From positions 153,134 through 217,133 of the forward strand of contig JACPWO010000001.1 of NCBI GenBank assembly GCA_016197005.1: a stretch of DNA of 64,000 nucleotides, read 5' to 3'. Below the pieces are notes generated by a model. It saw nothing but the letters and a program-made list of their open reading frames with translations, was not told where the DNA came from and did not search any database. The translations under genes were made by a program, and so were the position numbers. This DNA is from Candidatus Anderseniibacteriota bacterium. Its GTDB lineage: Bacteria > Patescibacteriota > Andersenbacteria > UBA10190. Positions 1 to 13,884 of the stretch are shown piece after piece (positions within the stretch are counted from its first letter, which is position 1; every line of letters begins with the position of its first letter).

Positions 1-755
1 TTTTCTGCGCTTTCTCAATAGCAAGAGTGGCCGGCTTGTCAGGATTATTTTTCTGGATATTACTTATTAGCTCGTGGCGTAGTTGCCGGTATTGCGTATA
101 AAACTTCTTTGAGATTTCCTCTTCCTCAATCCTGATGGCCGAGAGGATTCTTTCTGTGTTGCTTTGGCCAGTCTTGGCAATAAAATTTTGGCGGCATAAG
201 AGATAATAGAATTTGCGGAATTGGTAATAATTATCTTTTGGATCAACTAAATCTTTCAGCGTAAATTCTTCGTAGTCGAGTTGGTTATCACGGTAAATAC
301 GCATTTCATAAAAGTTTGTTACCAGCACAAAATCACACCGCGTATATTGTGGCTTGTATTTAAATGCTTGCTGTACGGGGGTTAAATTGCCTTCGCGCTG
401 CTGTGGCTTATCTAACGACGTATTAACGTCTTTAATCTCGCATACAGCGTGTACGTGCTTCGTATCAGGGGAGAAATAGCCCAAAGCAGCATCGGGCTTT
501 TGACCGCTCGTTTCAGTTCGCGCCTTCGGGTCAATCGTATAGGACTCTTTGGGAAAACTAATGTGATCTAAGACTTTAATAAATACATCATTATTAAAAG
601 CCTGTTCGCATTGCGACTCTGTTTTTTGTTGGAGTTCACCACTCTTGTAAGCGTCATACCAACTCGTCAATATTTTGAGCCTTGCATCAAAATCAGAGAT
701 ATCAAAATTCTCTAGTGCTTCCGTGATTGTCCGATCTTTAAAAAGCCGCGCCATA
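1..755 (-). CDS. Restriction endonuclease-like N-terminal domain (MmeI-like Type IIL/IIG or HsdR_N-like). It is partial: the N-terminus starts at 755 and the ORF runs off the window start.
   Basis: Hand translation of the reverse strand from the ATG at 755 gives MARLFKDRTITEAL...KPDAALGYFSPDTKHVHAVCEIKD...RCDFVLVTNFYEMRIY with no stop before position 1. The PD...E-x-K motif and the VLVxxF segment resemble the MmeI N-terminal nuclease domain. The ORF is absent from the track because it is open-ended. Confidence 0.5.
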
Positions 756-945
756 TGTTTAATCGTGGCTCCTTAAAAGCCGGCCTACTGTCTTATAGCC
801 GATTAATTCTTGCTCTTCTTTATTCTCTATATTCACGGACGATATTGTTAGCTAAGTTAACATTTGCTAACAATAATATACTGCACAGATTAGGCTTCTG
901 GCAAAGTTTTATTACGTTTAATTTTCTTCGGAACAGGGGCGTTGG

Positions 946-1224
946 CTACTTAAAATACTTGTCTATCACCGGTTTATCTCGTACCGCGTTCTTTCGTTTC
1001 AGCAATTCCCCTTTTACGACCCTATATGCTATCTGGAATATGTACACTGCGCCGAATATCTCTAGCCCGAATCGTACACCCTCCCAAGTACCACCAAAGA
1101 ACAAGAACATAACTGCTAAGGATAGTAGTATCGCCAATCCAAGCAGAATAGGTACTTGCAAAACTTCAATGACTTTATACATATCCAGCAAATTTCCTAA
1201 AGAGATCAGTAAAGGCAGAAACAA
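946..1224 (-). CDS. Possible small membrane protein (92 aa with a TTG start, or 78 aa from an internal ATG), 2-3 predicted TM helices.
   Basis: It lies on the same strand between the 170-aa gene and the nuclease-domain gene, and its sequence is strongly hydrophobic and helical. The AT-rich DNA could produce such an ORF by chance. Confidence 0.3.
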   Translation of the reverse strand: MFLPLLISLGNLLDMYKVIEVLQVPILLGLAILLSLAVMFLFFGGTWEGVRFGLEIFGAVYIFQIAYRVVKGELLKRKNAVRDKPVIDKYFK

Positions 1225-1687
1225 AAACTAGCTCATTCTCTCGTTTTAGTCCTTGGGCATAGCTAGAAATCTTTTTCCAAATTGGCTTTAAAATTCTTTC
1301 ATCTTTTTTATTAAATTCGTCCATTTCAGTCCACAAAGCATTACATTCGTCAGTACGGTCTAGGGTGGTGATAAAAGTTTCCTTTACGTGATCAGCGTTT
1401 TTAAAATTTACATTCTTTAAACTCAAAATCAGGAATAATATAATTATTTCGTAGAGCACATAAAACGCTTCTCGATTAAACGATTTAACTTTATTTTTGA
1501 TGATGCCGCTATCTGGATGAAATAATATATCTATCCCCTTATTGGCGGTTATGAGCATCTTAATCAATATTTCTTTTTCAGTGGATGCTTCCAAAGCATT
1601 CAGTTGCGAGAAGATATCATTCAATACGGGAACAGCGTTTTGATTGAAGTGGAGAGTATCGCCTTTGAATACTGAAAGTAACCCCAT
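1175..1687 (-). CDS. Hypothetical protein (170 aa)
   Basis: Its ATG lies 6 nt after the stop of the upstream gene at 1694, so the two genes are tightly coupled. I do not recognise the family. Confidence 0.5.
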   Translation of the reverse strand: MGLLSVFKGDTLHFNQNAVPVLNDIFSQLNALEASTEKEILIKMLITANKGIDILFHPDSGIIKNKVKSFNREAFYVLYEIIILFLILSLKNVNFKNADHVKETFITTLDRTDECNALWTEMDEFNKKDERILKPIWKKISSYAQGLKRENELVFVSAFTDLFRKFAGYV

Positions 1688-1693
1688 ACCGAT

Positions 1694-2554
1694 TCACTTA
1701 GTTAGAATCCTAATCGCCGTATCAACCCCGTACTTCGGTGCTTCAAAAATACTTTGTAATTTCGAATAATCACCGACCTCGCGGTAATACTTGGTCATTC
1801 CAGCAATTGATGTAACCAGAAAAAGTAGGGCGGTGTCCGACAAGGATTTAGCCAGATATTGAAAAAACATTACTGTTGAAACAGGGGCATAATACCCTTC
1901 ACCAACAGTATCCATCTGGGTTTGAATGACACGAGTACCGTCCGACTTTTCGTAAAGCTCACCGGCATATGTCTTTGTTACACTGCCGAATCCTGACTTT
2001 ACCAACTCTTGTCCGGAAGATAGTACATTTGCTCGTTTAGGAGAGCCATCATTAAACACAGAAACGCCGGCGGTAGTGATATGTTTAACCAGTGCATCAG
2101 CCGGCTCGCCACGGCCTAGATTAAAGAGCATCTTGGCGTAGTAAAGCGTAAACATTTGTACAAGATCACTTTCCCTGCTTGCATTCGCCATCGCCTCACT
2201 CATATATTCAACTGACGCTTTGTCTTCACCGTAGAATTGGATTATGACCGCGCCTATTTTCTTGGGTGAGCCCGTGTTAGCCTGATCTGGTTTTGGTGCT
2301 GATTCTGGTTGTGATGAAATATGGCGGCCGTATCTTACAAACCAGTAAGCGGCCATAAGCGCAAAGATTATCCCTCCGAGTACAATTACATCAAGGAAGG
2401 TTGAACCAGAAGCACCATCACGCTCTGATTGATTTAGGATTTTGGAGAAAGCGAGTAGAAGAAACCACCAGTTTCGACGTAGAAAACGAGAAAAATTGTA
2501 CGGCTTGTTTTCCTTATTGGTTAATCCAACAATAGCCGGTTCTTTATTCTTCAT
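1694..2554 (-). CDS. Hypothetical membrane protein (286 aa): two N-terminal TM helices and one C-terminal hydrophobic segment.
   Basis: It is a long ORF and the first gene of a co-oriented four-gene set ending in the restriction-like gene. Confidence 0.5.
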   Translation of the reverse strand: MKNKEPAIVGLTNKENKPYNFSRFLRRNWWFLLLAFSKILNQSERDGASGSTFLDVIVLGGIIFALMAAYWFVRYGRHISSQPESAPKPDQANTGSPKKIGAVIIQFYGEDKASVEYMSEAMANASRESDLVQMFTLYYAKMLFNLGRGEPADALVKHITTAGVSVFNDGSPKRANVLSSGQELVKSGFGSVTKTYAGELYEKSDGTRVIQTQMDTVGEGYYAPVSTVMFFQYLAKSLSDTALLFLVTSIAGMTKYYREVGDYSKLQSIFEAPKYGVDTAIRILTK

Positions 2555-2841
2555 ACTTTATTTTCATCAAGGGTTTAAAGCTGGCAGAAAACACAAAGCC
2601 CACCGCCAGCGGTGGCCGGAGCCACCTACGCAAGTTTCCCTGCGTAACCTTGATGAAGGGCTGAACGATGGGTTCAGTATCATCAAGGCTTCTAACACCA
2701 TATCTGTGCTCATTTAAGAGCATCAGGGTTAGGTGCTTGGCACTTATCGTGCCGTATTAAGTTGTTAAGTATGGTTTACAGCGAATATCACCATTAAGCA
2801 AGCGCGGCGCACTGCGCTGGGGCTGTCCTGTCTTACCGGCA

Positions 2842-3051
2842 CTATTTCTTTTTCTGGGCAGCATTAACAAGCTTGATGACATCTGTTTTTCGGAAGCGTC
2901 GATCTTTCCGCACACCAATCCGCACCGCTTTTAAAATTCCCTTCCGATCCCAAGCCCTCAAACTATTAGGGTGGACTTGAAGCAGTTGAGCGGCCTGTTT
3001 GAGAGTAAGAAGTTCGGGCAATTCCAAGTCTTTTAATGTGATCTCTGGCAT
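2842..3051 (-). CDS. Excisionase/MerR-like helix-turn-helix DNA-binding protein (69 aa)
   Basis: The sequence LTLKQAAQLLQVHPNSLRAWDRKGILKAVRIG is typical of the excisionase-family HTH. The gene is small, basic and divergent from a regulator gene. Confidence 0.6.
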   Translation of the reverse strand: MPEITLKDLELPELLTLKQAAQLLQVHPNSLRAWDRKGILKAVRIGVRKDRRFRKTDVIKLVNAAQKKK

Positions 3052-3130
3052 TTGCTTACTAAGTTACCATTAATTACCATTAGCATACAGCCTAGAGTAT
3101 AGGCTGACAATAAAACCTAAAGAATAAAAA
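3052..3130. promoter_or_regulatory. Divergent intergenic switch region with the tandem direct repeat taccatta-at-taccatta and the palindrome cagccta-gagta-taggctg.
   Basis: The repeats are visible in the sequence. The region sits between divergently transcribed excisionase-like and wHTH regulator genes. Confidence 0.35.
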
Positions 3131-3913
3131 ATGTTAGATTTAATCAAACTCAACGAGGAGATTCTTAAAAAAATTCAGATTCTCCTTAGCATAGTGCGTA
3201 GCTCTATCAACCTTGATGGTGGAAAGTTGGAAAGAGTAATCATTCCTAAAGTTAATTTTGAAAACAAAGGCTTATTACTAAGCGACGTTGAAACGCTACT
3301 GAATCGAATTGAACGAGAAGAAAACGAACTGCTTAGTATAGTGCCGCATAGCCCCCGCGATCACCAACCACGCCCATCGTCAAGTGATCACTTAATGATC
3401 GAGGCAATGTATGGCGTTCCCGCTGATGAGCATTATGCAGAGAAGAAGCAAAAATATAATGAAATCTATTCAAAAAGTTTTGAGATAAAAATACCTGATC
3501 ATAAGAGGCTAGATGAATTTGAAGAGTTGATAGATTCCGAGATAAAAAATCAGAGCAATCTTATTTGTGGAGAACTGCGCTTTAATTCTAGTACGGGCGA
3601 GGTTGAGTATTTTGATCTAAAAGATCGATTACTGCCTGGCACAAAAGAATTTTTATTATTGCGTGCATTATTGGCAAAAAAAGGAGAGTGGATCAGTTAT
3701 GAAGAAATCGTTAGGGTTATTGATCGAGATGAGAAAAAGGCGATGGTTAAGTCTGATGGTAAGAGAATTCGTTCTCTAGTTCGTAACATCAAAAATAAAC
3801 TTGGAATGACGGATGCGGGAGCAAAGAAGCTTGGTATTACTCCACCACTGCCCTCCCTTTTTTCAGAAGCTAAACAAAGAACCAGAAATGGTGTCGCGAT
3901 GACGTGCAATTAG
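3131..3913 (+). CDS. Putative transcriptional regulator: unrecognised N-terminal domain plus an OmpR/PhoB-type winged-helix C-terminus, with no receiver domain.
   Basis: The C-terminus LPGTKEFLLLRALLAKKGEWISYEEIVRVI...KRIRSLVRNIKNKLG matches the trans_reg_C pattern (LTxxEFxLLxxL...G.V.SRE.L....W......R.V.V.I..LR.KL). Confidence 0.5.
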   Translation: MLDLIKLNEEILKKIQILLSIVRSSINLDGGKLERVIIPKVNFENKGLLLSDVETLLNRIEREENELLSIVPHSPRDHQPRPSSSDHLMIEAMYGVPADEHYAEKKQKYNEIYSKSFEIKIPDHKRLDEFEELIDSEIKNQSNLICGELRFNSSTGEVEYFDLKDRLLPGTKEFLLLRALLAKKGEWISYEEIVRVIDRDEKKAMVKSDGKRIRSLVRNIKNKLGMTDAGAKKLGITPPLPSLFSEAKQRTRNGVAMTCN

Positions 3914-4089
3914 GGCTTATTTACGGGGCTATTTTTGCGCCTAAAATCAGGCGTTTTTTAGTTATCCACAGCCAGTAGTCCATATCACGTTCCTATCACG
4001 CCTGACGCTATGCGTTCTCCATTATTGATGCCACGACCCATTATAGACCGGCCACGCGCAGGAACGGACAATGAAGGCACGGTACAAAT

Positions 4090-4338
4090 ATGGAGAATCA
4101 AGTCAAACAAACGTGGCAAACAGATGATTTCTACTTATCAGCTTTTTGCCTTGCGTCGGGAGTAAAACTAGCTGATCTCGATAAATCAAATCCTCGACAA
4201 ATTTTCTTTGTCTTTAACGATTTTAAGGGCAGAGAAAATTTAGAGAGGGATTTTATTTTTGGTCGCACCACTGTTGATCCGAAAAAGTACGCAGCCGCGA
4301 TCAAAGAGTTAAAAAATCTAATGTACTCCAATGGTTAG
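4090..4338 (+). CDS. Small hypothetical protein (82 aa), DUF-like and element-associated.
   Basis: Clean ORF. The N-terminus TDDFYLSAFCLASGVKLADL resembles small phage- or plasmid-associated DUF proteins. Only a weak match can be judged by eye. Confidence 0.4.
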   Translation: MENQVKQTWQTDDFYLSAFCLASGVKLADLDKSNPRQIFFVFNDFKGRENLERDFIFGRTTVDPKKYAAAIKELKNLMYSNG

Positions 4339-4481
4339 TCAGGAGTTACTACGGGAGTTACAGATGATTATTCGTGAGGAACGAGGAATCGATTTAGATA
4401 TGAAAACCGTGAGCGCATTTGGCAATACGTGGGTGGATTTCTTCGCAACATTGGCGAAAATAAATCATCGAATAATAAAGT

Positions 4482-4766
4482 ATGAAGAAGATAAATCAAA
4501 ATCATAAATCTCCATTCTTTGAATCTGAATTATCGGAAGATGAGAGGTTAGCACTCACTTTGCTTCGGGATGATCCTCGCATAGCAGAGCATATAAGAAA
4601 AATGTTGAATGAGTATATTCCGATAGCTCCCGTTGATCAACGAACCCTACAAGTAGCCATTGACGCCTACTTGGTACTTTTGGCGGCTAAAGGAAACATA
4701 CGGGAGTGTATTCGGTTACTAAAAGAGGAAGTGGGCGCAGATTGGCCTAGGTTTTTTCAGGTATGA
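4482..4766 (+). CDS. Hypothetical protein (94 aa)
   Basis: Its stop overlaps the start of the primase gene (ATGA overlap), which suggests translational coupling. Confidence 0.4.
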   Translation: MKKINQNHKSPFFESELSEDERLALTLLRDDPRIAEHIRKMLNEYIPIAPVDQRTLQVAIDAYLVLLAAKGNIRECIRLLKEEVGADWPRFFQV

Positions 4767-6676
4767 GCGAATACTTCTTAAAAAAAGAAATCTCGCCGCC
4801 CAACAAGGCAACTACCTTGTTACCTCCTAGTACAAACTATCAACCAACGACTCTTTATGATTGGGCAAAATTCTACCGCGATGAATTACACTGGTCTATC
4901 ATTCCGATTATTAAGCGTACTAAAAAACCACTTGTTGAGTGGAAAGTTTTTCAAACGAGATTAGCAAATGATGAGGAGTTAGACCAATGGTTCAAGGGGA
5001 AAAGCAATCTTGAAGTAGGTATCGGTTTAGTAACTGGAAAATTATCAGGAGTAATTGTTGTCGATGAAGATACATATAAGCAAAAAGAAGGAGCTCCGGC
5101 GATACTATCAACGCTAAAATCAAAAACAGGACGGGGTGGAATTCATCATTTCTTTCAGCTCCACAATGAGTTACGTAATTCTGTAAATGATGAATTGGCT
5201 GTCGACATACGAGCAGAGGGTGGTTTTGTTGTTTTGCCTCCTACAATTCACCCCAACGGAAAGCAGTATGAGTGGATTGATCAAGCGAGGTTCGGCCATA
5301 TTCCAGAGCTACCGCCGGCAATCCTACAGGCAATTTTGCCCGCTAATAAACGGGCAGCCAATAACGGCAACGCTAATTTTAGAGAACCCCTAAAGGCTCA
5401 AGACTTTATTGGACTCAACCAAGGCAGTCGAAATGATCGCTTGCATCAATTCGTATGCTCTCTTTTAAATAAACACCCAGAAGGCGAAGCACGAACCTTA
5501 GCGTGGGCAATGAACCTCACTTTCAACCCACCCTTAGGAGAGAAGGAGTTTAATACGTTGTTTGATTCAGCGATTACTTTCATTAGGGCAAACCCCAAGA
5601 GCAGCTCTTATTCAAACAACAAAAAAGAAATCGATAAGCAACGGGATAAATGGCAATTTTTTAGTGCCGATGACTTAAAGGAGAAGGATTTACCGCCACC
5701 AGAATTTACTGTTACCCCTTTGGCCGTAGAGGACGGAATCAATATGATATCGGGCGATCCGGCATCAATGAAGAGTATGGTACTCGTTCATATGGCTATA
5801 CAAATCACTAAGGGAGAAAAAGTCTTTGGTAAGTTTGACTCCAAACAATCGGGTGTGCTGGTTGTTGATGATGAAAATGGCGAACGTGAATTAAAGAAGC
5901 GGTTTAATAAATTAGGAGCGTTTAGTGCGTCTTTGCCGCTTCACTACATTGCATACCCTGATCCACCAATGGCATTTGAGCTAGCCGATGTTCAATACTT
6001 GATTACCAAATGCAAAGAAATGAAAGCATCGGTTATTATGTTTGACTCTTACGTTCGATTTTTAGATGGGAAAAGTGAGAACGAATCATCTGATACCTCT
6101 GAAATTAACCGGACTTTGAAGGAGTTTGTTAAGACTGGTATCACTGTCATCTTTATTCATCACCATCGCAAAGCCGGTCTTGTTAAGGCTAAGGGTGGCC
6201 AAGAAGCACGTGGTAGCAGCGATCTTCTTGCAGGCGTTAATTCTCACCTAATTGTTTCGAAGAAAAAAGATAGCCTTGTTATTAAACAAGTAAAGCTTAG
6301 AGAGGATAAGGCACTTGAACCATTCGAGGTAATGGCAGTTGATAGTGAAAATAAAACTAAACTTTCATTCGAATACGTTGGGGAAGTAAAGCCAGAAGCA
6401 GACCTTCTCGAAGAAGCCAAAACAGCGATTTTAGATATACTTTCCCAAAGCGATAGACCCTTGTACACAAAAGAAATTAGCGACGCGGTTAGTGAGGCAG
6501 TGGGGATAGGCAAGAAAACGTCAGATAACGCCCTCAAAGAATTAGTTTCTGAAAAGTCAGTTGAGCTAGACCCCAATAAACACGAAAAAAACAGAAATTA
6601 TTACTACCTACCAGACGATAAGCCGAGCAACGATGAACCCGTTGACGAGATTCAGAAGGCACTAGACCAGATATGA
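4763..6676 (+). CDS. Phage/plasmid-type primase-helicase: bifunctional Prim-Pol N-terminal domain plus a P-loop (AAA_25/RepA-like) domain.
   Basis: The N-terminus YDWAKFYRDELHWSIIPI...VIVVDEDTY is the Prim-Pol pattern. The central part has the P-loop-like segment GDPASMKSMVLVHMA and VLVVDDENGE, which is Walker B-like. The gene is long and sits inside the element. Confidence 0.75.
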   Translation: MSEYFLKKEISPPNKATTLLPPSTNYQPTTLYDWAKFYRDELHWSIIPIIKRTKKPLVEWKVFQTRLANDEELDQWFKGKSNLEVGIGLVTGKLSGVIVVDEDTYKQKEGAPAILSTLKSKTGRGGIHHFFQLHNELRNSVNDELAVDIRAEGGFVVLPPTIHPNGKQYEWIDQARFGHIPELPPAILQAILPANKRAANNGNANFREPLKAQDFIGLNQGSRNDRLHQFVCSLLNKHPEGEARTLAWAMNLTFNPPLGEKEFNTLFDSAITFIRANPKSSSYSNNKKEIDKQRDKWQFFSADDLKEKDLPPPEFTVTPLAVEDGINMISGDPASMKSMVLVHMAIQITKGEKVFGKFDSKQSGVLVVDDENGERELKKRFNKLGAFSASLPLHYIAYPDPPMAFELADVQYLITKCKEMKASVIMFDSYVRFLDGKSENESSDTSEINRTLKEFVKTGITVIFIHHHRKAGLVKAKGGQEARGSSDLLAGVNSHLIVSKKKDSLVIKQVKLREDKALEPFEVMAVDSENKTKLSFEYVGEVKPEADLLEEAKTAILDILSQSDRPLYTKEISDAVSEAVGIGKKTSDNALKELVSEKSVELDPNKHEKNRNYYYLPDDKPSNDEPVDEIQKALDQI

Positions 6677-6937
6677 AATCGCATCAATACACCTCACCAG
6701 ACAGTTACGCAGTATTTCTCCCCTATAAGGGGAGGAAATACTGCTCTACTGCTGTGGTTATGAGGCTAAAGAACCAGTTGCGCAGTTCAGTTGCGCACAT
6801 CAATAATCAGAATAAACGGCTTAATCAAGGGTGCAATAGATTCAGTCGCGCAGTAGCGCAAAGAGGAGGTGATCATTAGAAATGAGCCAAAAGATCAAGT
6901 TAGGCTTAAAGCATCGTGAGTTGTATCGTGAGTAAGC

Positions 6938-7336
6938 TTGGTGTGGGATATAATAGAGTTGATGGAAAACAGCACAAAACAGAGCTATGTGTGGCAAGAA
7001 GTGGAATTCATTGAGGCATTTACCAACCCATTATCATCAACATTTGCCAACGGCCGACGATCCGCGCTGCAAGTGGGATATAGCCCTTGGTATGCCCGTA
7101 ATATCCGCTCACACTTCCCACCTCACCGGATTATGAAGCTGCAAAGAATCGTTGAGGCTAGAAGGGCGGTTACAGGCGACGAGCAAGAGAACAAAATAAT
7201 ATTTGAGTACGTTGATAAACCATTGACGCGGCGGATCGTTCGCAAGAATCGACGAGCCCTACCATCACACTTACAGCCTACCCCCTTTGAACAGGTATCG
7301 CGCGAGCTCGATGAACTGCTTGGCCCGATAGAGTGA
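6938..7336 (+). CDS. Hypothetical protein. The ATG at 6962 is the more likely start.
   Basis: The ORF lies between the primase gene and the recombinase gene. I do not recognise the family. Confidence 0.4.
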   Translation: MVWDIIELMENSTKQSYVWQEVEFIEAFTNPLSSTFANGRRSALQVGYSPWYARNIRSHFPPHRIMKLQRIVEARRAVTGDEQENKIIFEYVDKPLTRRIVRKNRRALPSHLQPTPFEQVSRELDELLGPIE

Positions 7337-7514
7337 TTATCACTTATTGACTAGTTTCAAGAGGTCGCTAGAGCCTCTACTAACAGGATATGCTCAAAAA
7401 AGATGGTTAATTTGTAGAGTAATATTAAGTAATGTAGTGCAAAAATGATCAAAATCGCTTCAAAATCAATTAAAATGCCTTCAAAAAGTTACCTTTATGC
7501 GCTATAATATGAAC

Positions 7515-7620
7515 GTGATCCAGCTAAATACAAAAGCCCAGAGTTTTTTATTTGCGTCGCTACCCGTAAAGGGGCAGTCTGCTAGCGACGTATTCCTCTG
7601 GGAGTATATTGCTGGATCAC
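7515..7620 (+). repeat. Nested inverted repeats forming a long imperfect hairpin in the leader of the serine recombinase gene.
   Basis: The pairs are gtgatccagc (7515-7524) with gctggatcac (7611-7620), cccagag (7537-7543) with ctctggg (7596-7602), and cgtcgcta (7555-7562) with tagcgacg (7583-7590). A TATAAT box sits just upstream at 7503-7508. Confidence 0.45.
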
Positions 7621-7651
7621 AACAGGCTGTCCCTTTTAGGTTATTGAAATT

Positions 7652-9346
7652 ATGAAAGTTGTTGGATTGGCTAGGGTATCTTCAAAGGAGCAAGAATCGG
7701 GCTACTCCCTAGATGCACAGGTAAAGCTCAATAAGGAGTATGCCGGCGGCAAGGATTTTACGATTGTTAAGACCTTTAGAATTACTGAATCGGCAAGTGG
7801 CAAGCAGATACGTAAAATCTTCAATGAGATGCTTAACTTTGCTACTGATCACAATATCCCCGTGATTATTTGCGAGAAGATTGATCGTTTAACCCGCAAC
7901 TTGAAAGACGCAAACACAGTTAATGAATGGGTTAGGGAAGATAAAAAGCGAGAGGTTCACTTTATTAAGGAAAACTTTATCCTCAATAGCAATACGAGAG
8001 CGCACGAAAACCTAGTTTGGGATATGAAAGTGGCAATTGCACGTTTCTACTCCAATAATCTTTCAGAGGAAATCCGCAAGGGGCAAAAAGAAAAGATAGC
8101 CCAAGGCGGCTTTCCTACTAAAGCGAAGCCTGGCTACAAAGGCGTCGGAGAAAAAGGCCACAAAGTTGATGTTATTGATGAGGCGGTAGCTCCTTACATT
8201 ATTCAAATGTTTGAGCGGTATGCTACTGGCAACTATTCCCTAAAGGCTTTGGTTAAAGTGATGTACGAGGAGGGGTTAAGAAATAGAAGTGGAAAAAAGA
8301 TAGGTAAAACAAGGATGCACCAATTACTTGCTGATCCGTTCTACTATGGAAAATTGCGCTGGAAGGGCGAAATTTATCAAGGAAACCACCAGCCAATTAT
8401 TTCAAAAGAGCTTTTTGACGCTGTGCAGATCAAATTAGACCGCAACCTTTCTAATCCTCAATATCGGAAACATTTACCTATATTCAAGGCCAAGATTAAA
8501 TGCGAGGAGTGCGGCGGCCTTATAACGTGGGAACTCCAAAAAGGCCACTGGTACGGCCATTGCAATCATTATCGAGATTGCGGTCAAAAGGCTTATACGC
8601 GGCAGGAAAAAGTCGAAGAACAGCTTTTCCCATACTTTGATAAGGTAGCCCCTAAGAGTGATCGGGTATTAAATTGGCTAGAACGAGCCTTAAAAGAAAG
8701 TCATAAAGATAAGATTCAATATCATACCGCCCAGCGAGAGAAACTGAATACGCAGATAGCAACCATTGATCAACGTATGGAAGGGGCGTATGAGGATAAA
8801 TTAGATAAGAGAATCACGGCCGAGAAGTACGATGAACGGAGCCGTAAATGGCAGGAGGATAAAGCAGATTTACTAAAATCACTGCATAACCTAAGCGATG
8901 CTAACCAACAATATTATCAAGTAGGTTTTGCTATTCACGAGTTGGCACTTAAAGCCAAAGCAATCTACCACTCTCAACAAGCAACCACCGATGATAAGCG
9001 ATTATTGTTGAGCAAGCTCTTTGCGGATATGTCTTTAGATGAAGGCAAGCTCACCGGCAATTACTCTGCTGCCTTTGAGTTTTTAATCACTTGGATACCC
9101 AAAGTAAACAAGATTTTCGAACCAGAGCTAAAAGTGGCAAGCAATAAGGCGTTAGCAACCAGTACCGCAAAAGAGCTCCAAAAGGCTATGGCTGGGGTAG
9201 CTGATCAACGACAGGATTTTCGAACCGATAAAAACAAATCTGTTGAGCCACAAAAGGTATTATCAGATGCAGAAACGAATGTATTGTTCCCGGGCAGGGA
9301 TTCGAACCCCGATTCAGAGCTCCAAAGGCTCTTGTCCTGCCGTTAG
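7652..9346 (+). CDS. Large serine recombinase (resolvase/invertase catalytic domain, recombinase domain and zinc ribbon).
   Basis: The N-terminus VGLARVSSKEQESGYSLDAQ carries the catalytic Ser motif. The protein is large and has a Cys cluster CEECGG...HCNHYRDCG. Its last ~19 codons are encoded by the complement of the tRNA-Gln. Confidence 0.85.
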   Translation: MKVVGLARVSSKEQESGYSLDAQVKLNKEYAGGKDFTIVKTFRITESASGKQIRKIFNEMLNFATDHNIPVIICEKIDRLTRNLKDANTVNEWVREDKKREVHFIKENFILNSNTRAHENLVWDMKVAIARFYSNNLSEEIRKGQKEKIAQGGFPTKAKPGYKGVGEKGHKVDVIDEAVAPYIIQMFERYATGNYSLKALVKVMYEEGLRNRSGKKIGKTRMHQLLADPFYYGKLRWKGEIYQGNHQPIISKELFDAVQIKLDRNLSNPQYRKHLPIFKAKIKCEECGGLITWELQKGHWYGHCNHYRDCGQKAYTRQEKVEEQLFPYFDKVAPKSDRVLNWLERALKESHKDKIQYHTAQREKLNTQIATIDQRMEGAYEDKLDKRITAEKYDERSRKWQEDKADLLKSLHNLSDANQQYYQVGFAIHELALKAKAIYHSQQATTDDKRLLLSKLFADMSLDEGKLTGNYSAAFEFLITWIPKVNKIFEPELKVASNKALATSTAKELQKAMAGVADQRQDFRTDKNKSVEPQKVLSDAETNVLFPGRDSNPDSELQRLLSCR

Positions 9347-9358
9347 ACGACCCGGGAA
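9287..9358 (-). tRNA. tRNA-Gln (anticodon TTG)
   Basis: Reverse complement TCCCGGGTCGTCTAACGGCAGGACAAGAGCCTTTGGAGCTCTGAATCGGGGTTCGAATCCCTGCCCGGGAA. The acceptor stem is 7 bp, the anticodon stem AGAGC/GCTCT is perfect, the loop is CTTTGGA, and the T-loop is TTCGAAT. Confidence 0.8.
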
Positions 9359-11747: not shown

Positions 11748-12812
11748 TTACTTCATTGTTTCGTCGACCACCTGCTTGATCGTTAGCCGAAATATTCCGG
11801 ACCGACGAACGAATTCATCCAGTGAGAGTCGACTAGAATCCTCAATGAGATCTAAAAGGCCATCTAGGTCTCCTTCATAGATAGTTGTTGTGTTGTCCGA
11901 GTTCATGTACCGACTGGTGCTAATAAAAGCTCGATGACCAGCGATCTGTGCAGCACTTTCCAGTGATCCTCCGTGCTCTAGAAAAAGCCTAAGGCCCGTG
12001 GCACGAAGCACGCGGGGAGTAATGTCTCTTTTAATTCCAGCGCGACGTGCAATACCTTTGATTGCTCTTTGAACACTCCGCGGGTGTAGACGATCGCCTA
12101 CAACGCCGTTAACTCCTTTCTGGAGTACCGGGAAAAGAGGATCAGACGCCTTATTGAATGGAGTATGCGCTAAATACTCATCAACGTAAGTTTCGACGAG
12201 TGTATTTGCGGGAATGTACCGTTCAAACTTGTTCGTAATATGGAACCACCGTCGATTGTCACGAAATTGATAGTCTGCAACGTTCAATTCAAGCATAGCC
12301 TCTGTCGAAAGAAATCCATGGAGTATCGTGGCCATCATGGCTCGATTTCGCAACTGCACAAGTGATTCTCCATTACTAGCCTTAAGTAGTTGGGCAATCT
12401 CTTGAGCACTCAATCGCGCAGTGGCCCCCTCATCATCCACCTTTGAACGCTTGACTGATGCTACAGGATTTGCCGGAAGGAGCTCACCTTTCACAAACCA
12501 GTCAAAAAAAGTATGGATAGCTGCTAACTGGAAATTCGTATATCGAGGCTTGTACTTTTGATCCACCACTGAAACGAAGGCTTCAACTATTTTGTGATTC
12601 ACTTGCGATAGGACAAAATTCTGCTTATCGCACCACGATAGAAAATGTGAGATGGCTCTTCCGTAAGTATCACGCACTCCATTACTCTGAATACGTTCGT
12701 AGAAATAACTTTGGAATCTGGATACAAACTCGGGACCAGCCCGCGTAACTGATTGGGGACAGTGGGTAAGCAATACCATTACCGTCCTCGGCAATTCTTT
12801 TCGATCGCTCAT
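11748..12812 (-). CDS. Tyrosine site-specific recombinase (XerC/XerD-like).
   Basis: The C-terminus LRATGLRLFLEHGGSLESAAQIAGHRAFISTSRY fits the R..H-R..Y catalytic pattern. GGAG is present upstream of the ATG. Confidence 0.8.
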   Translation of the reverse strand: MSDRKELPRTVMVLLTHCPQSVTRAGPEFVSRFQSYFYERIQSNGVRDTYGRAISHFLSWCDKQNFVLSQVNHKIVEAFVSVVDQKYKPRYTNFQLAAIHTFFDWFVKGELLPANPVASVKRSKVDDEGATARLSAQEIAQLLKASNGESLVQLRNRAMMATILHGFLSTEAMLELNVADYQFRDNRRWFHITNKFERYIPANTLVETYVDEYLAHTPFNKASDPLFPVLQKGVNGVVGDRLHPRSVQRAIKGIARRAGIKRDITPRVLRATGLRLFLEHGGSLESAAQIAGHRAFISTSRYMNSDNTTTIYEGDLDGLLDLIEDSSRLSLDEFVRRSGIFRLTIKQVVDETMK

Positions 12813-12990
12813 TTCTCTATCTCCGGTGAGACTATAGTTTTGTTATCAAGGAACCGTTAATATTATATACATCTAATTTCATAACTAGTCAATAATATTA
12901 AGTTGACAAAGATGGGTAAAGTTGGTAGTAAAGTAATGACCGGGTGCGGTCTTGTTCTGTAACAATTAGAGCAAACCCTAGAATAGGACA

Positions 12991-13884
12991 ATGAGAATGT
13001 CTTCTGCAACACAGCTCTCTCTCCGACGAACCTATCAAGAAATCGATATTGATCTCATTGATGATCCTGATATTGAGCTACGGCAACATATCGAGGAAGA
13101 ATCATTGAATGAATTGTCAGCATCCATCGCAGATCGCGATATGCTTAGTCCAGTGCTTGTAACAACTAGACCAAATCGAAGTCGATATGTTTTGATTGCC
13201 GGCGGGCGTCGTGTCCGAGGTGCCAAAAAGGCGTCTAAAAAGCATGTTCCTGGATACGTCTATGAAGATGTACCAGCTAACGAAGCGCTCGAAATGGCTC
13301 TCATTGAGAACGTACAACGAGACAATCTTGAGCCGATGTGGGAAGCTCGAGCTTATGCAATACTCAAGGAAAAATTCAACACCTCAGTTGAAGACATTGC
13401 GAAGCGATTACGTAAGCGAGTTCAGCATGTAAAGGAACGTTTGGCTTTACTTGGGCTACCCCTCGATATACAACGCAAGATTGAGGAAAAAACAATCCCT
13501 ACAACCTCTGCTGTAGCTATTGCAAAGATCAAGGATGAAAATGTTCAGAGAGCGATGGCAGAGAAAGCCGAGCAAGAACATCTTCCTTACAACGTTGTGA
13601 AAAGAATGGTAGAGGAATCTGTTTCTAAGGTCCGCCGGCGGAAAAAACGGCGACAACAACCGACCAGACAACCTGGTAGCCCTTGGGGAGAGCGCAAGAG
13701 AGATCAAGCAGAACGTCACTTACAGGAGACCGTTCTGAAAGGCGAAGAGTTACTTCGCCAGTTAGGACAAATTGATCTTGCACAGTGGCAGAAATCTGAT
13801 CTTCGAAAGTTGCAATCTGGAGTCAATGCAATCCAACAAGGACTAAGTAAATTCCAAGTTCAAGTTTCAACACTCCTTAAGTGA
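12991..13884 (+). CDS. parB: ParB/Spo0J-like partition protein.
   Basis: VLIAGGRRVRGAKK and ALIENVQRDNLEPMWEARAY match the ParB boxes, and an HTH follows. No parA gene is adjacent. Confidence 0.7.
   Translation: MRMSSATQLSLRRTYQEIDIDLIDDPDIELRQHIEEESLNELSASIADRDMLSPVLVTTRPNRSRYVLIAGGRRVRGAKKASKKHVPGYVYEDVPANEALEMALIENVQRDNLEPMWEARAYAILKEKFNTSVEDIAKRLRKRVQHVKERLALLGLPLDIQRKIEEKTIPTTSAVAIAKIKDENVQRAMAEKAEQEHLPYNVVKRMVEESVSKVRRRKKRRQQPTRQPGSPWGERKRDQAERHLQETVLKGEELLRQLGQIDLAQWQKSDLRKLQSGVNAIQQGLSKFQVQVSTLLK

What the first reader, a model, noticed from the sequence alone, without database searches (positions are those of the whole stretch)
1..2554. Co-oriented four-gene cargo operon ending in an MmeI-like nuclease domain: candidate unrecognised defence or accessory module
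A 286-aa membrane protein, a 170-aa protein, a possible 92-aa small membrane protein, and a restriction-type PD-(D/E)xK N-terminal domain protein are transcribed in the same direction. The first two genes have a 6-nt gap. I do not recognise any of the three upstream proteins. MmeI-like enzymes are normally stand-alone, so a membrane-protein partnership would be unusual and could represent a new RM-associated or abortive-infection-like arrangement.
Basis: partly seen in the sequence, partly recalled or inferred. Interest (0 to 1): 0.6.

Follow-up and report, generated by a model that had tools for sequence, protein, structure and literature searches.

The report
Restriction gene beside orphan membrane module
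A complete MmeI-type restriction-modification gene on an integrated mobile element of a Candidatus Andersenbacteria genome lies next to a small membrane-anchored gene module of unknown function; that module recurs in other Patescibacteria almost always without a restriction gene, so the two are neighbours rather than a proven new defence system.

Summary
The ORFs are real and co-oriented. The source contig (GCA_016178385.1) shows that the partial ORF continues into a complete 1023-aa MmeI-family enzyme (nuclease, N6A methyltransferase, TRD). The RM-membrane partnership is not conserved. The 286-aa protein is a fusion of a small, probably 2-TM, anchor, a free-standing 62-85-aa gene elsewhere, with an orphan ~200-aa soluble domain. 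The anchor is the constant part of a Patescibacteria module. In 12 of 13 motif-bearing loci, the window included, the gene after it starts 1-10 nt downstream or overlaps, and encodes one of several proteins beginning MG[LF]F. The two families compared are unrelated. Of about 27 other loci, about 11 with at least 4 kb on one side, only L034 holds an RM gene: a 47%-identical MmeI on the opposite strand in its own HTH_17 operon. In the window a 191-nt gap with a promoter-like site and a 13-nt-arm palindrome separates MmeI from the trio. Sequence, profile and fold searches gave no informative match for the three upstream proteins. A LOOT RNA (RF03000) ends 56 nt upstream of the module's first gene in the window and in L034. 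Verdict: an ordinary RM gene beside an independent uncharacterised module; moderate-low interest.

The parts
1..754 (-). First 251 codons of a 1023-aa MmeI-family (Type IIL/IIG) restriction-modification enzyme: the PD-ExK nuclease domain (P87-D88 ... E106-I-K108) and the start of the helical spacer
   Evidence: Translation; Pfam MmeI_N 8.7e-6 and PADLOC REase_MTase_IIG 4e-16. The full gene was recovered in L001 11801-14872 with Eco57I 2e-43, TaqI_C 2e-19, N6_Mtase and MmeI_Mtase and PADLOC 2e-114.
755..945 (-). 191-nt intergenic region upstream of the MmeI gene. It holds a promoter-like site (TTGCCA-18-TATATT, 904-875), an operator-like palindrome with 13-nt arms (843-855/863-875), and AAGGAG 14 nt before the ATG
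   Evidence: These are consensus matches only. They fit a separately controlled MmeI transcription unit but do not prove one.
946..1182 (-). Its ATG overlaps the 170-aa stop by 8 nt
   Evidence: called as 78 aa in L003; 13 homologues, motif FFGGTWEGVRFGLE; hydrophobic stretch 1-36. It was not found in any other module locus.
1175..1687 (-). 170-aa 'family A' partner protein. It has an MGLLS N-terminal peptide, a conserved HFNxNAVPxxN segment, a 7-helix bundle fold, and a very hydrophobic helix at 72-95
1697..2281 (-). C-terminal soluble domain of the 286-aa protein (residues ~92-286). This is orphan 'family B', elsewhere a free-standing ~200-aa protein starting MGFFSNLMGQK
2324..2509 (-). N-terminal membrane anchor of the 286-aa protein (residues ~16-77, motif RNWWFLLLAF ... 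GGIIFALMAAYWFVRYGR). Elsewhere this is a separate 62-85-aa gene
   Evidence: BLASTP/tblastn 44-74% identity to free-standing genes in L005, L009, L010, L012, L013, L016-L024, L027, L028, L033, L034, L036-L038. AF2 predicts a helical hairpin, 21-45 and 50-79.
2580..2735 (-). LOOT RNA (Rfam RF03000, 2611-2735) plus a further conserved hairpin (2580-2610). It ends 56 nt upstream of the 286-aa start codon, on the same strand
   Evidence: 64.2 bits against a gathering score of 46.4. MFE z-score -7.6. 14 compensatory pairs against the L034 copy (85.5 bits), which shows the same 56-nt spacing.
2842..3051 (-). 69-aa HTH_17/MerR-type DNA-binding protein (excisionase- or controller-like), co-oriented upstream of LOOT and the module
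   Evidence: Pfam HTH_17 1.3e-10. In L034 an HTH_17 gene sits 6 nt upstream of the MmeI orthologue.

Best explanation
Positions 1-2554 hold two independent units that happen to be neighbours. Both are cargo of a roughly 17-kb integrative element with serine recombinases and PrimPol, in a Candidatus Andersenbacteria (Patescibacteria) chromosome.

Unit 1 is a complete single-polypeptide MmeI-family restriction-modification enzyme. It probably has its own promoter and operator. Outside the window it heads a tight run of defence-type genes (PDC-S11/DUF4268, a Cas4-like nuclease and two unknown genes). It should work like other MmeI-family enzymes, as an ordinary stand-alone RM.

Unit 2 is a self-contained Patescibacteria module. 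It comprises the LOOT RNA leader, the 286-aa and 170-aa genes, and in this locus the 78-aa gene. Its constant part is a small helical-hairpin membrane protein. Directly after it come one to three interchangeable cytoplasmic proteins. The two families compared are unrelated, but all share a short, disordered N-terminal peptide, M-G-[LF]-F-[ST].

Inferred mechanism: the peptide docks each partner onto the anchor at the inner face of the membrane. In this genome one partner (family B) has been fused to the anchor, and the fusion replaces the peptide with a linker. The next partner (family A, 170 aa) still docks.

Shown: the gene architecture, the fusion, the conservation pattern, and the lack of an RM requirement.
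Inferred: docking, the N-in/C-in topology, regulation by LOOT or HTH, and the biological role. My leaning for the role, about one in three, is a mobile-element accessory or conflict cassette that acts at the membrane.
For: MmeI
- The full-length gene and its domains were recovered.
- Motif I (DPACGSGAF) and GNPPYV are visible in the alignment.
- PD...ExK is present in the window.
- Upstream lie a 191-nt gap, a promoter-like site and a palindrome.
- No flanking gene gave a methyltransferase domain hit, and there are no BREX or DISARM partners.
- Morgan 2009 found no consistent flanking genes in this family.

Module independence
- A tblastn census plus Pfam and PADLOC censuses of 139 neighbour proteins in 16 loci found a single RM protein, in L034. 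Otherwise the neighbours are mostly housekeeping genes: RecA, aminoacyl-tRNA synthetases, GroES/EL, TsaD, pilus genes.
- L009 carries the module on an element of similar layout (serine recombinase, DUF5659, divergent cargo) with no RM gene.

Anchor plus partner
- In 12 of 13 motif-bearing loci, the window included, the gene after the anchor starts 1-10 nt after its stop or overlaps it (two loci). It begins MG[LF]F or MSIF.
- The partner family varies: A, B, D, E or a 206-aa protein.
- Families A and B are unrelated by hhalign (probability 0.7%).
- Their predicted folds differ: all-alpha against alpha/beta.

Peptide and fusion
- Residues 1-9 of the 170-aa model have pLDDT below 50.
- In the fusion, the MGFFSNL peptide of free family-B proteins is replaced by a low-confidence linker, residues 74-94.
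- The fusion ORF is identical in a MAG and three separate run assemblies.

LOOT
- It has the same strand and the same 56-nt spacing in the window and in L034, with 14 compensatory pairs.
Against: - L034 shares four features with the window: an HTH_17-type gene (domain-level match only), an MmeI orthologue (47% identity), LOOT and the anchor (about 70%). tblastn detected no other shared gene. These features may therefore travel together in one sub-lineage.
- Many comparison contigs are short, so absence of an RM gene is informative in only about 10 loci.
- No terminator was predicted between the small ORF and MmeI, so read-through co-transcription is possible.
- Docking of the peptide on the anchor is untested. 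The peptide is not amphipathic (muH 0.02-0.43), so direct insertion into the membrane is not supported either.
- The first hydrophobic segment of the anchor is weak, so the hairpin topology is uncertain.
- The 170-aa protein has one very hydrophobic helix and could itself be membrane-inserted.
- The function remains unknown.
Confidence: 0.6

Rival explanations
1. One reading: the membrane proteins are functional partners of the MmeI enzyme. This would be a new RM-associated or abortive-infection-like system in which a membrane component senses or executes and the RM enzyme restricts.
For: - All genes are co-oriented, with no predicted terminator before MmeI.
- A second locus, L034, again combines the anchor module, LOOT, an HTH_17 gene and a 47%-identical MmeI within 5 kb, with no other detectable shared genes.
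- The window's element is rich in defence genes (PDC-S11, a Cas4-like nuclease).
Against: - In L034 the MmeI gene is on the opposite strand, 1.7 kb away, and forms its own operon with HTH_17.
- About 10 other loci with at least 4 kb of flank have the module and no RM gene.
- The partner next to the anchor differs between the two MmeI-linked loci: family B fusion plus A in the window, family E in L034.
- The 78-aa gene is unique to the window.
- The MmeI gene has its own promoter-like site and palindrome.
- The family is described as having no consistent flanking genes.
Confidence: 0.12
2. The module is a stand-alone abortive-infection or toxin-like cassette. The conserved small membrane protein is a membrane-disrupting effector, and the variable MG[LF]F proteins are interchangeable sensors or antidotes. 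The logic resembles that of 2-TM effectors in other conflict systems.
For: - A constant membrane component with variable soluble partners, and a fusion of partner to membrane component.
- The module is rare and patchy: 2 loci among 185,579 species genomes for family B, and tens of metagenome contigs.
- It lies on mobile elements in the window and L009, and probably L034.
- tRNA genes or HTH regulators are often adjacent (XRE-type in L005 and L038).
Against: - No PADLOC hit and no Pfam match of any kind to the anchor region, so none to a known 2-TM effector family.
- Most loci are embedded among housekeeping genes, not in defence islands.
- The anchor is strongly conserved (50-87% identity), unlike many fast-evolving defence effectors.
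- No relatives were found on viral contigs.
- There is no experimental evidence of toxicity.
Confidence: 0.25
3. The module is a lineage-specific envelope or membrane-biogenesis function of Patescibacteria, not conflict-related. The copy in this element is a hitch-hiking paralogue.
For: - Neighbours in most loci are housekeeping genes (RecA, aminoacyl-tRNA synthetases, GroES/EL, TsaD, type IV pilus genes).
- The anchor sequence is highly conserved across different candidate phyla, including Andersenbacteria and Saccharibacteria.
Against: - It is too rare to be a core function.
- The partner set varies from locus to locus.
- It occurs as cargo on integrative elements.
Confidence: 0.15

Closest known systems
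MmeI family of Type IIL (IIG/IIS) restriction-modification enzymes (Morgan et al. 2009, PMC2731913; Callahan et al. 2016, PMC4833311)
   Same: A single ~1000-aa polypeptide with an N-terminal PD-ExK nuclease domain, a helical spacer, a gamma-class N6-adenine methyltransferase (motif I DPACGSGAF, motif IV NPPY) and a TaqI_C-type TRD. No second methyltransferase lies nearby.
   Different: The match to Pfam MmeI_N is just below the curated cut-off (26.6 against 27 bits for the fragment). The recognition sequence, cleavage distance and single-strand modification are untested. It heads a run of further defence-type genes (PDC-S11, a Cas4-like nuclease) and sits behind an unrelated membrane module.
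LOOT RNA motif (Rfam RF03000; a metagenome-derived family from the Weinberg/Breaker ZWD collection, typed 'sRNA'; PMC7779021)
   Same: A full-length match to the covariance model above the gathering score in the window (64.2 bits) and in L034 (85.5 bits), with compensatory changes between the two.
   Different: Here it sits in a fixed position, 56 nt upstream of and co-oriented with the first gene of the anchor module, followed by an extra conserved hairpin. That looks more like a 5' leader than a free-standing sRNA. It is absent from the other module loci.
Psp-type membrane stress systems: small membrane proteins PspB/PspC recruit peripheral PspA, whose N terminus MGIFSRF forms an amphipathic helix (recalled from memory; a lead only)
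   Same: A small membrane protein plus soluble, largely helical partners of about 170-200 aa whose N termini read MG[LFI]F.
2-TM effector modules of conflict systems, such as SLATT-type and other small transmembrane effectors fused or adjacent to sensor domains (recalled from memory)
   Same: A small helical-hairpin membrane component that is either adjacent to or fused with variable soluble domains, sometimes on mobile elements.
   Different: There is no detectable sequence similarity (Pfam and PADLOC negative). The genomic surroundings are mostly housekeeping. No nucleotide-signalling or other sensor enzymes are nearby.

Membership tests
MmeI family (Type IIL RM) | N-terminal PD-ExK nuclease motif (D70, E80, K82 in MmeI; PMC2731913) | tested here: met
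   P87-D88 ... E106-I-K108 in the window ORF, conserved in the L034 orthologue. Pfam MmeI_N 8.7e-6, 0.4 bits below the cut-off; PADLOC REase_MTase_IIG 4e-16. Whether D88 or D97 corresponds to D70 was not resolved.
MmeI family (Type IIL RM) | Fused gamma-class N6-adenine methyltransferase and C-terminal TRD in the same polypeptide | tested here: met
   In the source contig L001 11801-14872: Eco57I 2.4e-43, N6_Mtase 8.7e-19, MmeI_Mtase 1.2e-14, TaqI_C 2.4e-19. DPACGSGAF and GNPPYV are visible. This part lies outside the window.
MmeI family (Type IIL RM) | No separate methyltransferase or specificity gene, and no consistent partner genes | tested here: met
   No flanking gene in L001 or L034 gave a methyltransferase or S-subunit domain hit. 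Only one of about 11 informative module loci has an MmeI gene.
MmeI family (Type IIL RM) | Cleavage about 20/18 nt from an asymmetric site; protection by methylating one strand only | not testable with these tools
   Needs biochemistry or methylome data.
BREX (PglX) / DISARM (DrmMI) | An MmeI-like methyltransferase accompanied by PglZ, BrxC and BrxL, or by DrmA/B/C | tested here: not met
   PglX and DrmMI models score far below the Type IIG models (3e-33 and 2e-39 against 2e-114). None of the partner families is among the neighbours.
LOOT RNA (RF03000) | Score at or above the Rfam gathering threshold, with the helices supported | tested here: met
   64.2 bits (gathering 46.4) over model positions 1-121. 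14 pairs are kept through double changes against L034. z-score -7.6.
Known anti-phage defence proteins (PADLOC-DB 2.0) | A significant match of the 286-, 170- or 78/92-aa protein to any defence model | tested here: not met
PspA/IM30-ESCRT-III | The family's Pfam domain or fold, and an amphipathic N-terminal helix | tested here: not met
Small 2-TM conflict effectors (e.g. SLATT) | A profile match to the family | tested here: not met
   The Pfam scan of the 286-aa protein at E<=0.1 gave only a sub-threshold TPR_5 hit in the soluble domain. NCBIfam and PHROGs gave nothing.

The most novel reading that the evidence does not exclude
The LOOT RNA, the small hairpin membrane anchor and the exchangeable MG[LF]F-tagged cytoplasmic proteins together form a previously undescribed, Patescibacteria-specific system that acts at the membrane. 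LOOT serves as its cis-acting leader. In the LOOT-bearing sub-lineage the system travels with, and may cooperate with, an HTH-controlled MmeI-type RM enzyme. This would give the orphan LOOT RNA both a host lineage and a function.
Probability: 0.2. Interest if true: 0.65.

Novelty: new member of a known kind. Interest (0 to 1): 0.35.

Why it matters
- For the finding as posed, the result is mostly negative. The MmeI-type gene is an ordinary stand-alone RM enzyme on a mobile element. The proposed membrane partnership is not a conserved arrangement, so it should not be catalogued as a new RM-associated defence system.
- The side products have modest value. A small membrane anchor followed by interchangeable proteins that share only a five-residue N-terminal tag is a clean, testable example of modular recruitment, supported by one natural fusion. 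It occurs in an uncultivated phylum where much of the gene content is uncharacterised.
- The LOOT RNA was described as a metagenome-based family (PMC7779021). Here it is placed in a Candidatus Andersenbacteria MAG, on an integrative element, at a fixed distance upstream of this module in two loci. That gives a concrete hypothesis for its role.

Tried and rejected
- **Family scans.** Pfam, PADLOC, PHROGs and NCBIfam scans of the three upstream proteins and of the partner families gave nothing credible.
- **PspA/Vipp1-like amphipathic N-terminal helix.** Rejected on the low hydrophobic moment.
- **Are families A and B distant paralogues?** Rejected by hhalign.
- **LOOT as a general companion of the module.** Rejected: it is absent from all other module loci scanned.
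- **LOOT 3' hairpin and terminator as an attenuator.** The terminator-like hit at 2615-2600 overlaps the last LOOT stem. The minimum-free-energy folds instead give a further conserved hairpin with no U-tract. Attenuation is therefore not supported.
- **Phage origin.** There are no relatives of family A, family B, the anchor or the PrimPol in IMG/VR contigs. An exact LOOT-derived DNA pattern found one viral contig, but it is not LOOT by Rfam.
- **Element ends.** No convincing att direct repeats were found, so the boundaries are undetermined.
- **Combined anchor plus family-B alignment.** It could not be used to scan genomes.
- **Alternative start at M67 of the 286-aa ORF.** This would remove the anchor. 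Rejected, because residues 16-77 are conserved in frame with the free-standing anchor genes.
- **Antisense 158-aa ORF at 755-1231 (+).** One assembly calls it as a gene. I treated it as spurious because the 78-aa and 170-aa genes on the other strand have homologues.
Full report
**1. Observation**

The minus strand of window 1-2554 carries four ORFs:
- a 286-aa ORF at 1694-2554;
- a 170-aa ORF at 1175-1687, 6 nt downstream of the first;
- a small ORF at 946-1224, which is 92 aa from a TTG start or 78 aa from the ATG at 1182 (that ATG overlaps the 170-aa stop by 8 nt);
- an ORF starting at ATG 754 that runs off the window start.

The last ORF has a PD...ExK signature (P87-D88, E106-I-K108). It matches Pfam MmeI_N (8.7e-6, 26.6 bits against a cut-off of 27) and PADLOC REase_MTase_IIG (4e-16).

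The 78-aa reading of the small ORF is preferred for two reasons. An independent assembly calls it that way (L003). The protein also has 13 homologues at E<=1e-3 with a conserved FFGGTWEGVRFGLE core.

**2. Where the window comes from, and the rest of the MmeI gene**

An exact-protein look-up of the 286-aa product found the source: GCA_016178385.1, contig JACOTL010000006.1, 492 kb. It is a MAG named Candidatus Andersenbacteria. The same sequence is present in three separate run assemblies.

In the source contig the partial ORF continues to 1023 aa. It carries Eco57I (2e-43), N6_Mtase, MmeI_Mtase and TaqI_C (2e-19) domains, and PADLOC REase_MTase_IIG scores 2e-114. Motif I (DPACGSGAF) and GNPPYV are visible in the alignment.

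BREX and DISARM are excluded. PglX and DrmMI models score far lower, and none of their partner genes is nearby.

Downstream, outside the window, the MmeI gene is followed by four close-packed genes, two of which overlap their upstream neighbour:
- DUF4268, which matches PADLOC candidate PDC-S11 at 3e-126;
- a Cas4-like PD-(D/E)xK protein;
- a 107-aa ORF;
- a 514-aa ORF.

A second serine recombinase gene follows these.

**3. Setting**

Window 1 to about 9357 is part of an integrated element. The evidence:
- a 564-aa large serine recombinase (7652-9346) abuts tRNA-Gln(ttg) at 9286-9357;
- there is a PrimPol-AAA_25 protein (4763-6676), DUF5659 (4090-4338) and an HTH_17/MerR-type protein (2842-3051);
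- GC is 0.415, against 0.465 for the rest of the window.

I found no att repeats, and no relatives on IMG/VR viral contigs. 'Cargo of a mobile element' is therefore supported.

**4. What the 286-aa protein is**

Only 10 homologues were found among 5.8 billion clusters. All are 176-202 aa and cover only the C-terminal two-thirds.

Residues ~16-77 instead match free-standing 62-85-aa membrane proteins in other loci at 44-74% identity. Their motif is RNWWFLLLAFAKIFNQSE...GGIILIIMFAYWFIRYGRK.

The 286-aa protein is therefore a fusion of a small membrane anchor with an orphan soluble domain, 'family B'.
- AF2 (pLDDT 75 overall, mostly 85-95 in the soluble domain) predicts a helical hairpin at 21-45 and 50-79, a disordered linker at 74-94, and an alpha/beta domain.
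- Hydropathy gives one strong transmembrane segment (47-75) and a weaker one (28-40).
- Basic residues on both flanks and an acidic loop suggest an N-in/C-in topology. This is an inference.
- An alternative start at M67 would delete the anchor. I reject it because the upstream residues are conserved in frame.

**5. The conserved unit is anchor plus partner, not trio plus MmeI**

The 170-aa protein ('family A') has 16 homologues at 38-67% identity. I fetched 18 metagenome loci for it, plus contexts from exact-protein look-ups.

In a tblastn census the anchor gene lies directly upstream of the family-A gene in 17 of the 21 family-A loci. In 12 of 13 motif-bearing loci, the window included, the next gene begins MG[LF]F or MSIF. 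It starts 1-10 nt after the anchor's stop in ten of them and overlaps it by 23 nt in two (L019, L021).

The partner varies:
- family A in most loci;
- family D (MGFFSKYNEIEK) in L037;
- family E (MGLFTKKKIT) in L034;
- a 206-aa MGFFSNLGD protein in L005;
- family B, fused to the anchor, in the window.

Further MG[LF]F or MS[LIF]FKKK proteins flank the pair.

Families A and B are unrelated by profile comparison (hhalign probability 0.7%). Their predicted folds also differ. Family A is a 7-helix bundle (pLDDT 85, pTM 0.82) whose residues 1-9 are disordered.

In the fusion, the MGFFSNL peptide of free family-B proteins is replaced by the linker. This fits the peptide being a tether that a covalent link makes redundant. 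The peptide is not amphipathic: muH is 0.02-0.43, against 0.57-0.83 for the PspA and Vipp1 N termini, which I quote from memory. I therefore favour docking onto the anchor over direct insertion into the membrane.

**6. Test of the RM partnership**

There are about 27 non-redundant loci other than the window. About 11 of them have at least 4 kb on one side of the module.

I scanned 139 neighbour proteins from 16 loci against Pfam and PADLOC. Exactly one RM protein turned up. The other neighbours are mostly housekeeping genes: RecA, aminoacyl-tRNA synthetases, GroES/EL, TsaD, deformylase, pilus genes.

L009 carries the module on an element of similar layout (serine recombinase, DUF5659, divergent cargo) but has no RM gene.

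The exception is L034. It has an MmeI orthologue, 47% identical over the full length with a divergent TRD, 1.7 kb from the anchor module. That gene is on the opposite strand and forms its own operon with an HTH_17 gene 6 nt upstream. By tblastn, only the anchor and MmeI are shared between L034 and the window element. LOOT and an HTH_17-type gene are also common to both.

In the window, the 191-nt gap before MmeI carries:
- a promoter-like site, TTGCCA-18-TATATT, at 904-875;
- a palindrome with 13-nt arms, 92% complementary, at 843-855/863-875;
- AAGGAG.

No terminator is predicted there.

The paper describing the family reports that no particular genes consistently flank PD-ExK MmeI homologues (PMC2731913).

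Taken together, the module does not need an RM enzyme, and the enzyme is of a stand-alone kind. A loose linkage in one sub-lineage cannot be excluded; I give it about 0.12.

**7. Searches for function**

- Pfam, PADLOC, PHROGs and NCBIfam gave no credible hit for the three proteins or for partner families C, D and E.
- Foldseek against BFVD gave nothing.
- afdb50 was not available.

The biological role stays open. The pattern is a constant membrane part with variable partners, in a rare and patchy module that is often next to tRNA or HTH-regulator genes and is three times on mobile elements. That leans towards an accessory or conflict function, at about one in three. The housekeeping neighbourhoods and the well-conserved anchor argue the other way.

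**8. LOOT RNA (found in passing, partly followed up)**

Rfam finds a full-length LOOT RNA (RF03000) at 2611-2735 (-), scoring 64.2 bits against a gathering score of 46.4. It lies between the HTH_17 gene and the 286-aa gene. L034 has one too, at 85.5 bits.

In both loci the RNA is on the module's strand and ends exactly 56 nt before the first module gene. It is followed by an additional hairpin conserved between the two (window 2580-2610). The two copies differ by 14 compensatory pair changes, and their folds have z-scores of -7.6 and -10.2.

LOOT is described as a metagenome-based family and is typed as an sRNA (PMC7779021). Here it looks like a 5' leader. It is absent from all the other module loci, so it is not a general part of the module.

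**9. Verdict**

Its core idea, a conserved RM-membrane partnership, is not supported.

What is there is a new member of the MmeI family lying next to an independent, uncharacterised Patescibacteria membrane-anchor module that begins with a LOOT RNA. Interest is moderate-low for the finding as posed. The module and the LOOT placement are worth a short follow-up.

Noticed in passing
window 2580-2735 (-); L034 9422-9600 (+): A LOOT RNA (Rfam RF03000, known as a metagenome-based family) sits 56 nt upstream of, and co-oriented with, the first gene of the anchor module in both loci. An extra conserved hairpin follows it, and the two copies differ by 14 compensatory pair changes. This suggests a 5' leader rather than a free sRNA, and places LOOT in a Candidatus Andersenbacteria MAG.
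   Followed up: partly
window 1-9357; L001 3198-20114: An integrative element of about 17 kb next to tRNA-Gln(ttg). It has a 564-aa large serine recombinase whose ORF overlaps the tRNA, PrimPol-AAA_25, DUF5659, HTH_17 and a second serine recombinase at the far end. GC is 0.415 against 0.465 for the rest of the window. No att repeats were found, and there are no IMG/VR relatives. L009 holds an element of similar layout with different cargo.
   Followed up: partly
L001 14869-18448 (outside the window, beyond position 1): The MmeI gene is followed by four close-packed genes, two of which overlap their upstream neighbour: DUF4268 (PADLOC candidate PDC-S11, 3e-126), a Cas4-like PD-(D/E)xK protein (251 aa), a 107-aa ORF and a 514-aa ORF with no family hit. 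If the enzyme has real co-transcribed partners, they are here.
   Followed up: partly
window 843-904 (-): A promoter-like site (TTGCCA-18-TATATT) is followed at once by a palindrome with 13-nt arms (TATTGTTAGCTAA/TTTGCTAACAATA) upstream of the MmeI start. It resembles a controller-protein operator. In L034 an HTH_17 gene lies 6 nt upstream of the MmeI orthologue.
   Followed up: partly
L005, L009, L013, L016, L022, L027, L034, L036-L038 (module loci): Several protein families encoded around the anchor gene share only a short N-terminal tag, M-G/S-[LFI]-[FL]-[STK]; the two families compared (A and B) are unrelated. Of 215 ORFs called in 22 loci, 22 match the tag, and only 2 lie outside the module.
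   Followed up: partly
L005, L012, L018, L019, L021, L025, L029, L031, L036, L039: tRNA genes lie within a few hundred bases of the module in many loci. XRE-type HTH genes directly precede it in L005 and L038. This hints at small tRNA-associated islands or a conserved synteny.
   Followed up: no
window 755-1231 (+): A 158-aa ORF antisense to the 78-aa and 170-aa genes is called as a gene in one assembly (L002). It is probably spurious, because the genes on the opposite strand have homologues.
   Followed up: partly
window 11748-13884: A tyrosine integrase (354 aa, minus strand) lies next to a ParB-like gene about 2.4 kb beyond the tRNA-Gln. This may be a second mobile-element remnant or a Xer/ParB chromosomal pair.
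   Followed up: no
window 1175-1687 (-), residues 72-95: The 170-aa protein contains a very hydrophobic, conserved helix (FYVLYEIIILFLILSL, KD 1.93). AF2 buries it in the bundle, but it could also be a membrane-inserting segment. It explains the weak PHROGs 'membrane protein' hit.
   Followed up: partly
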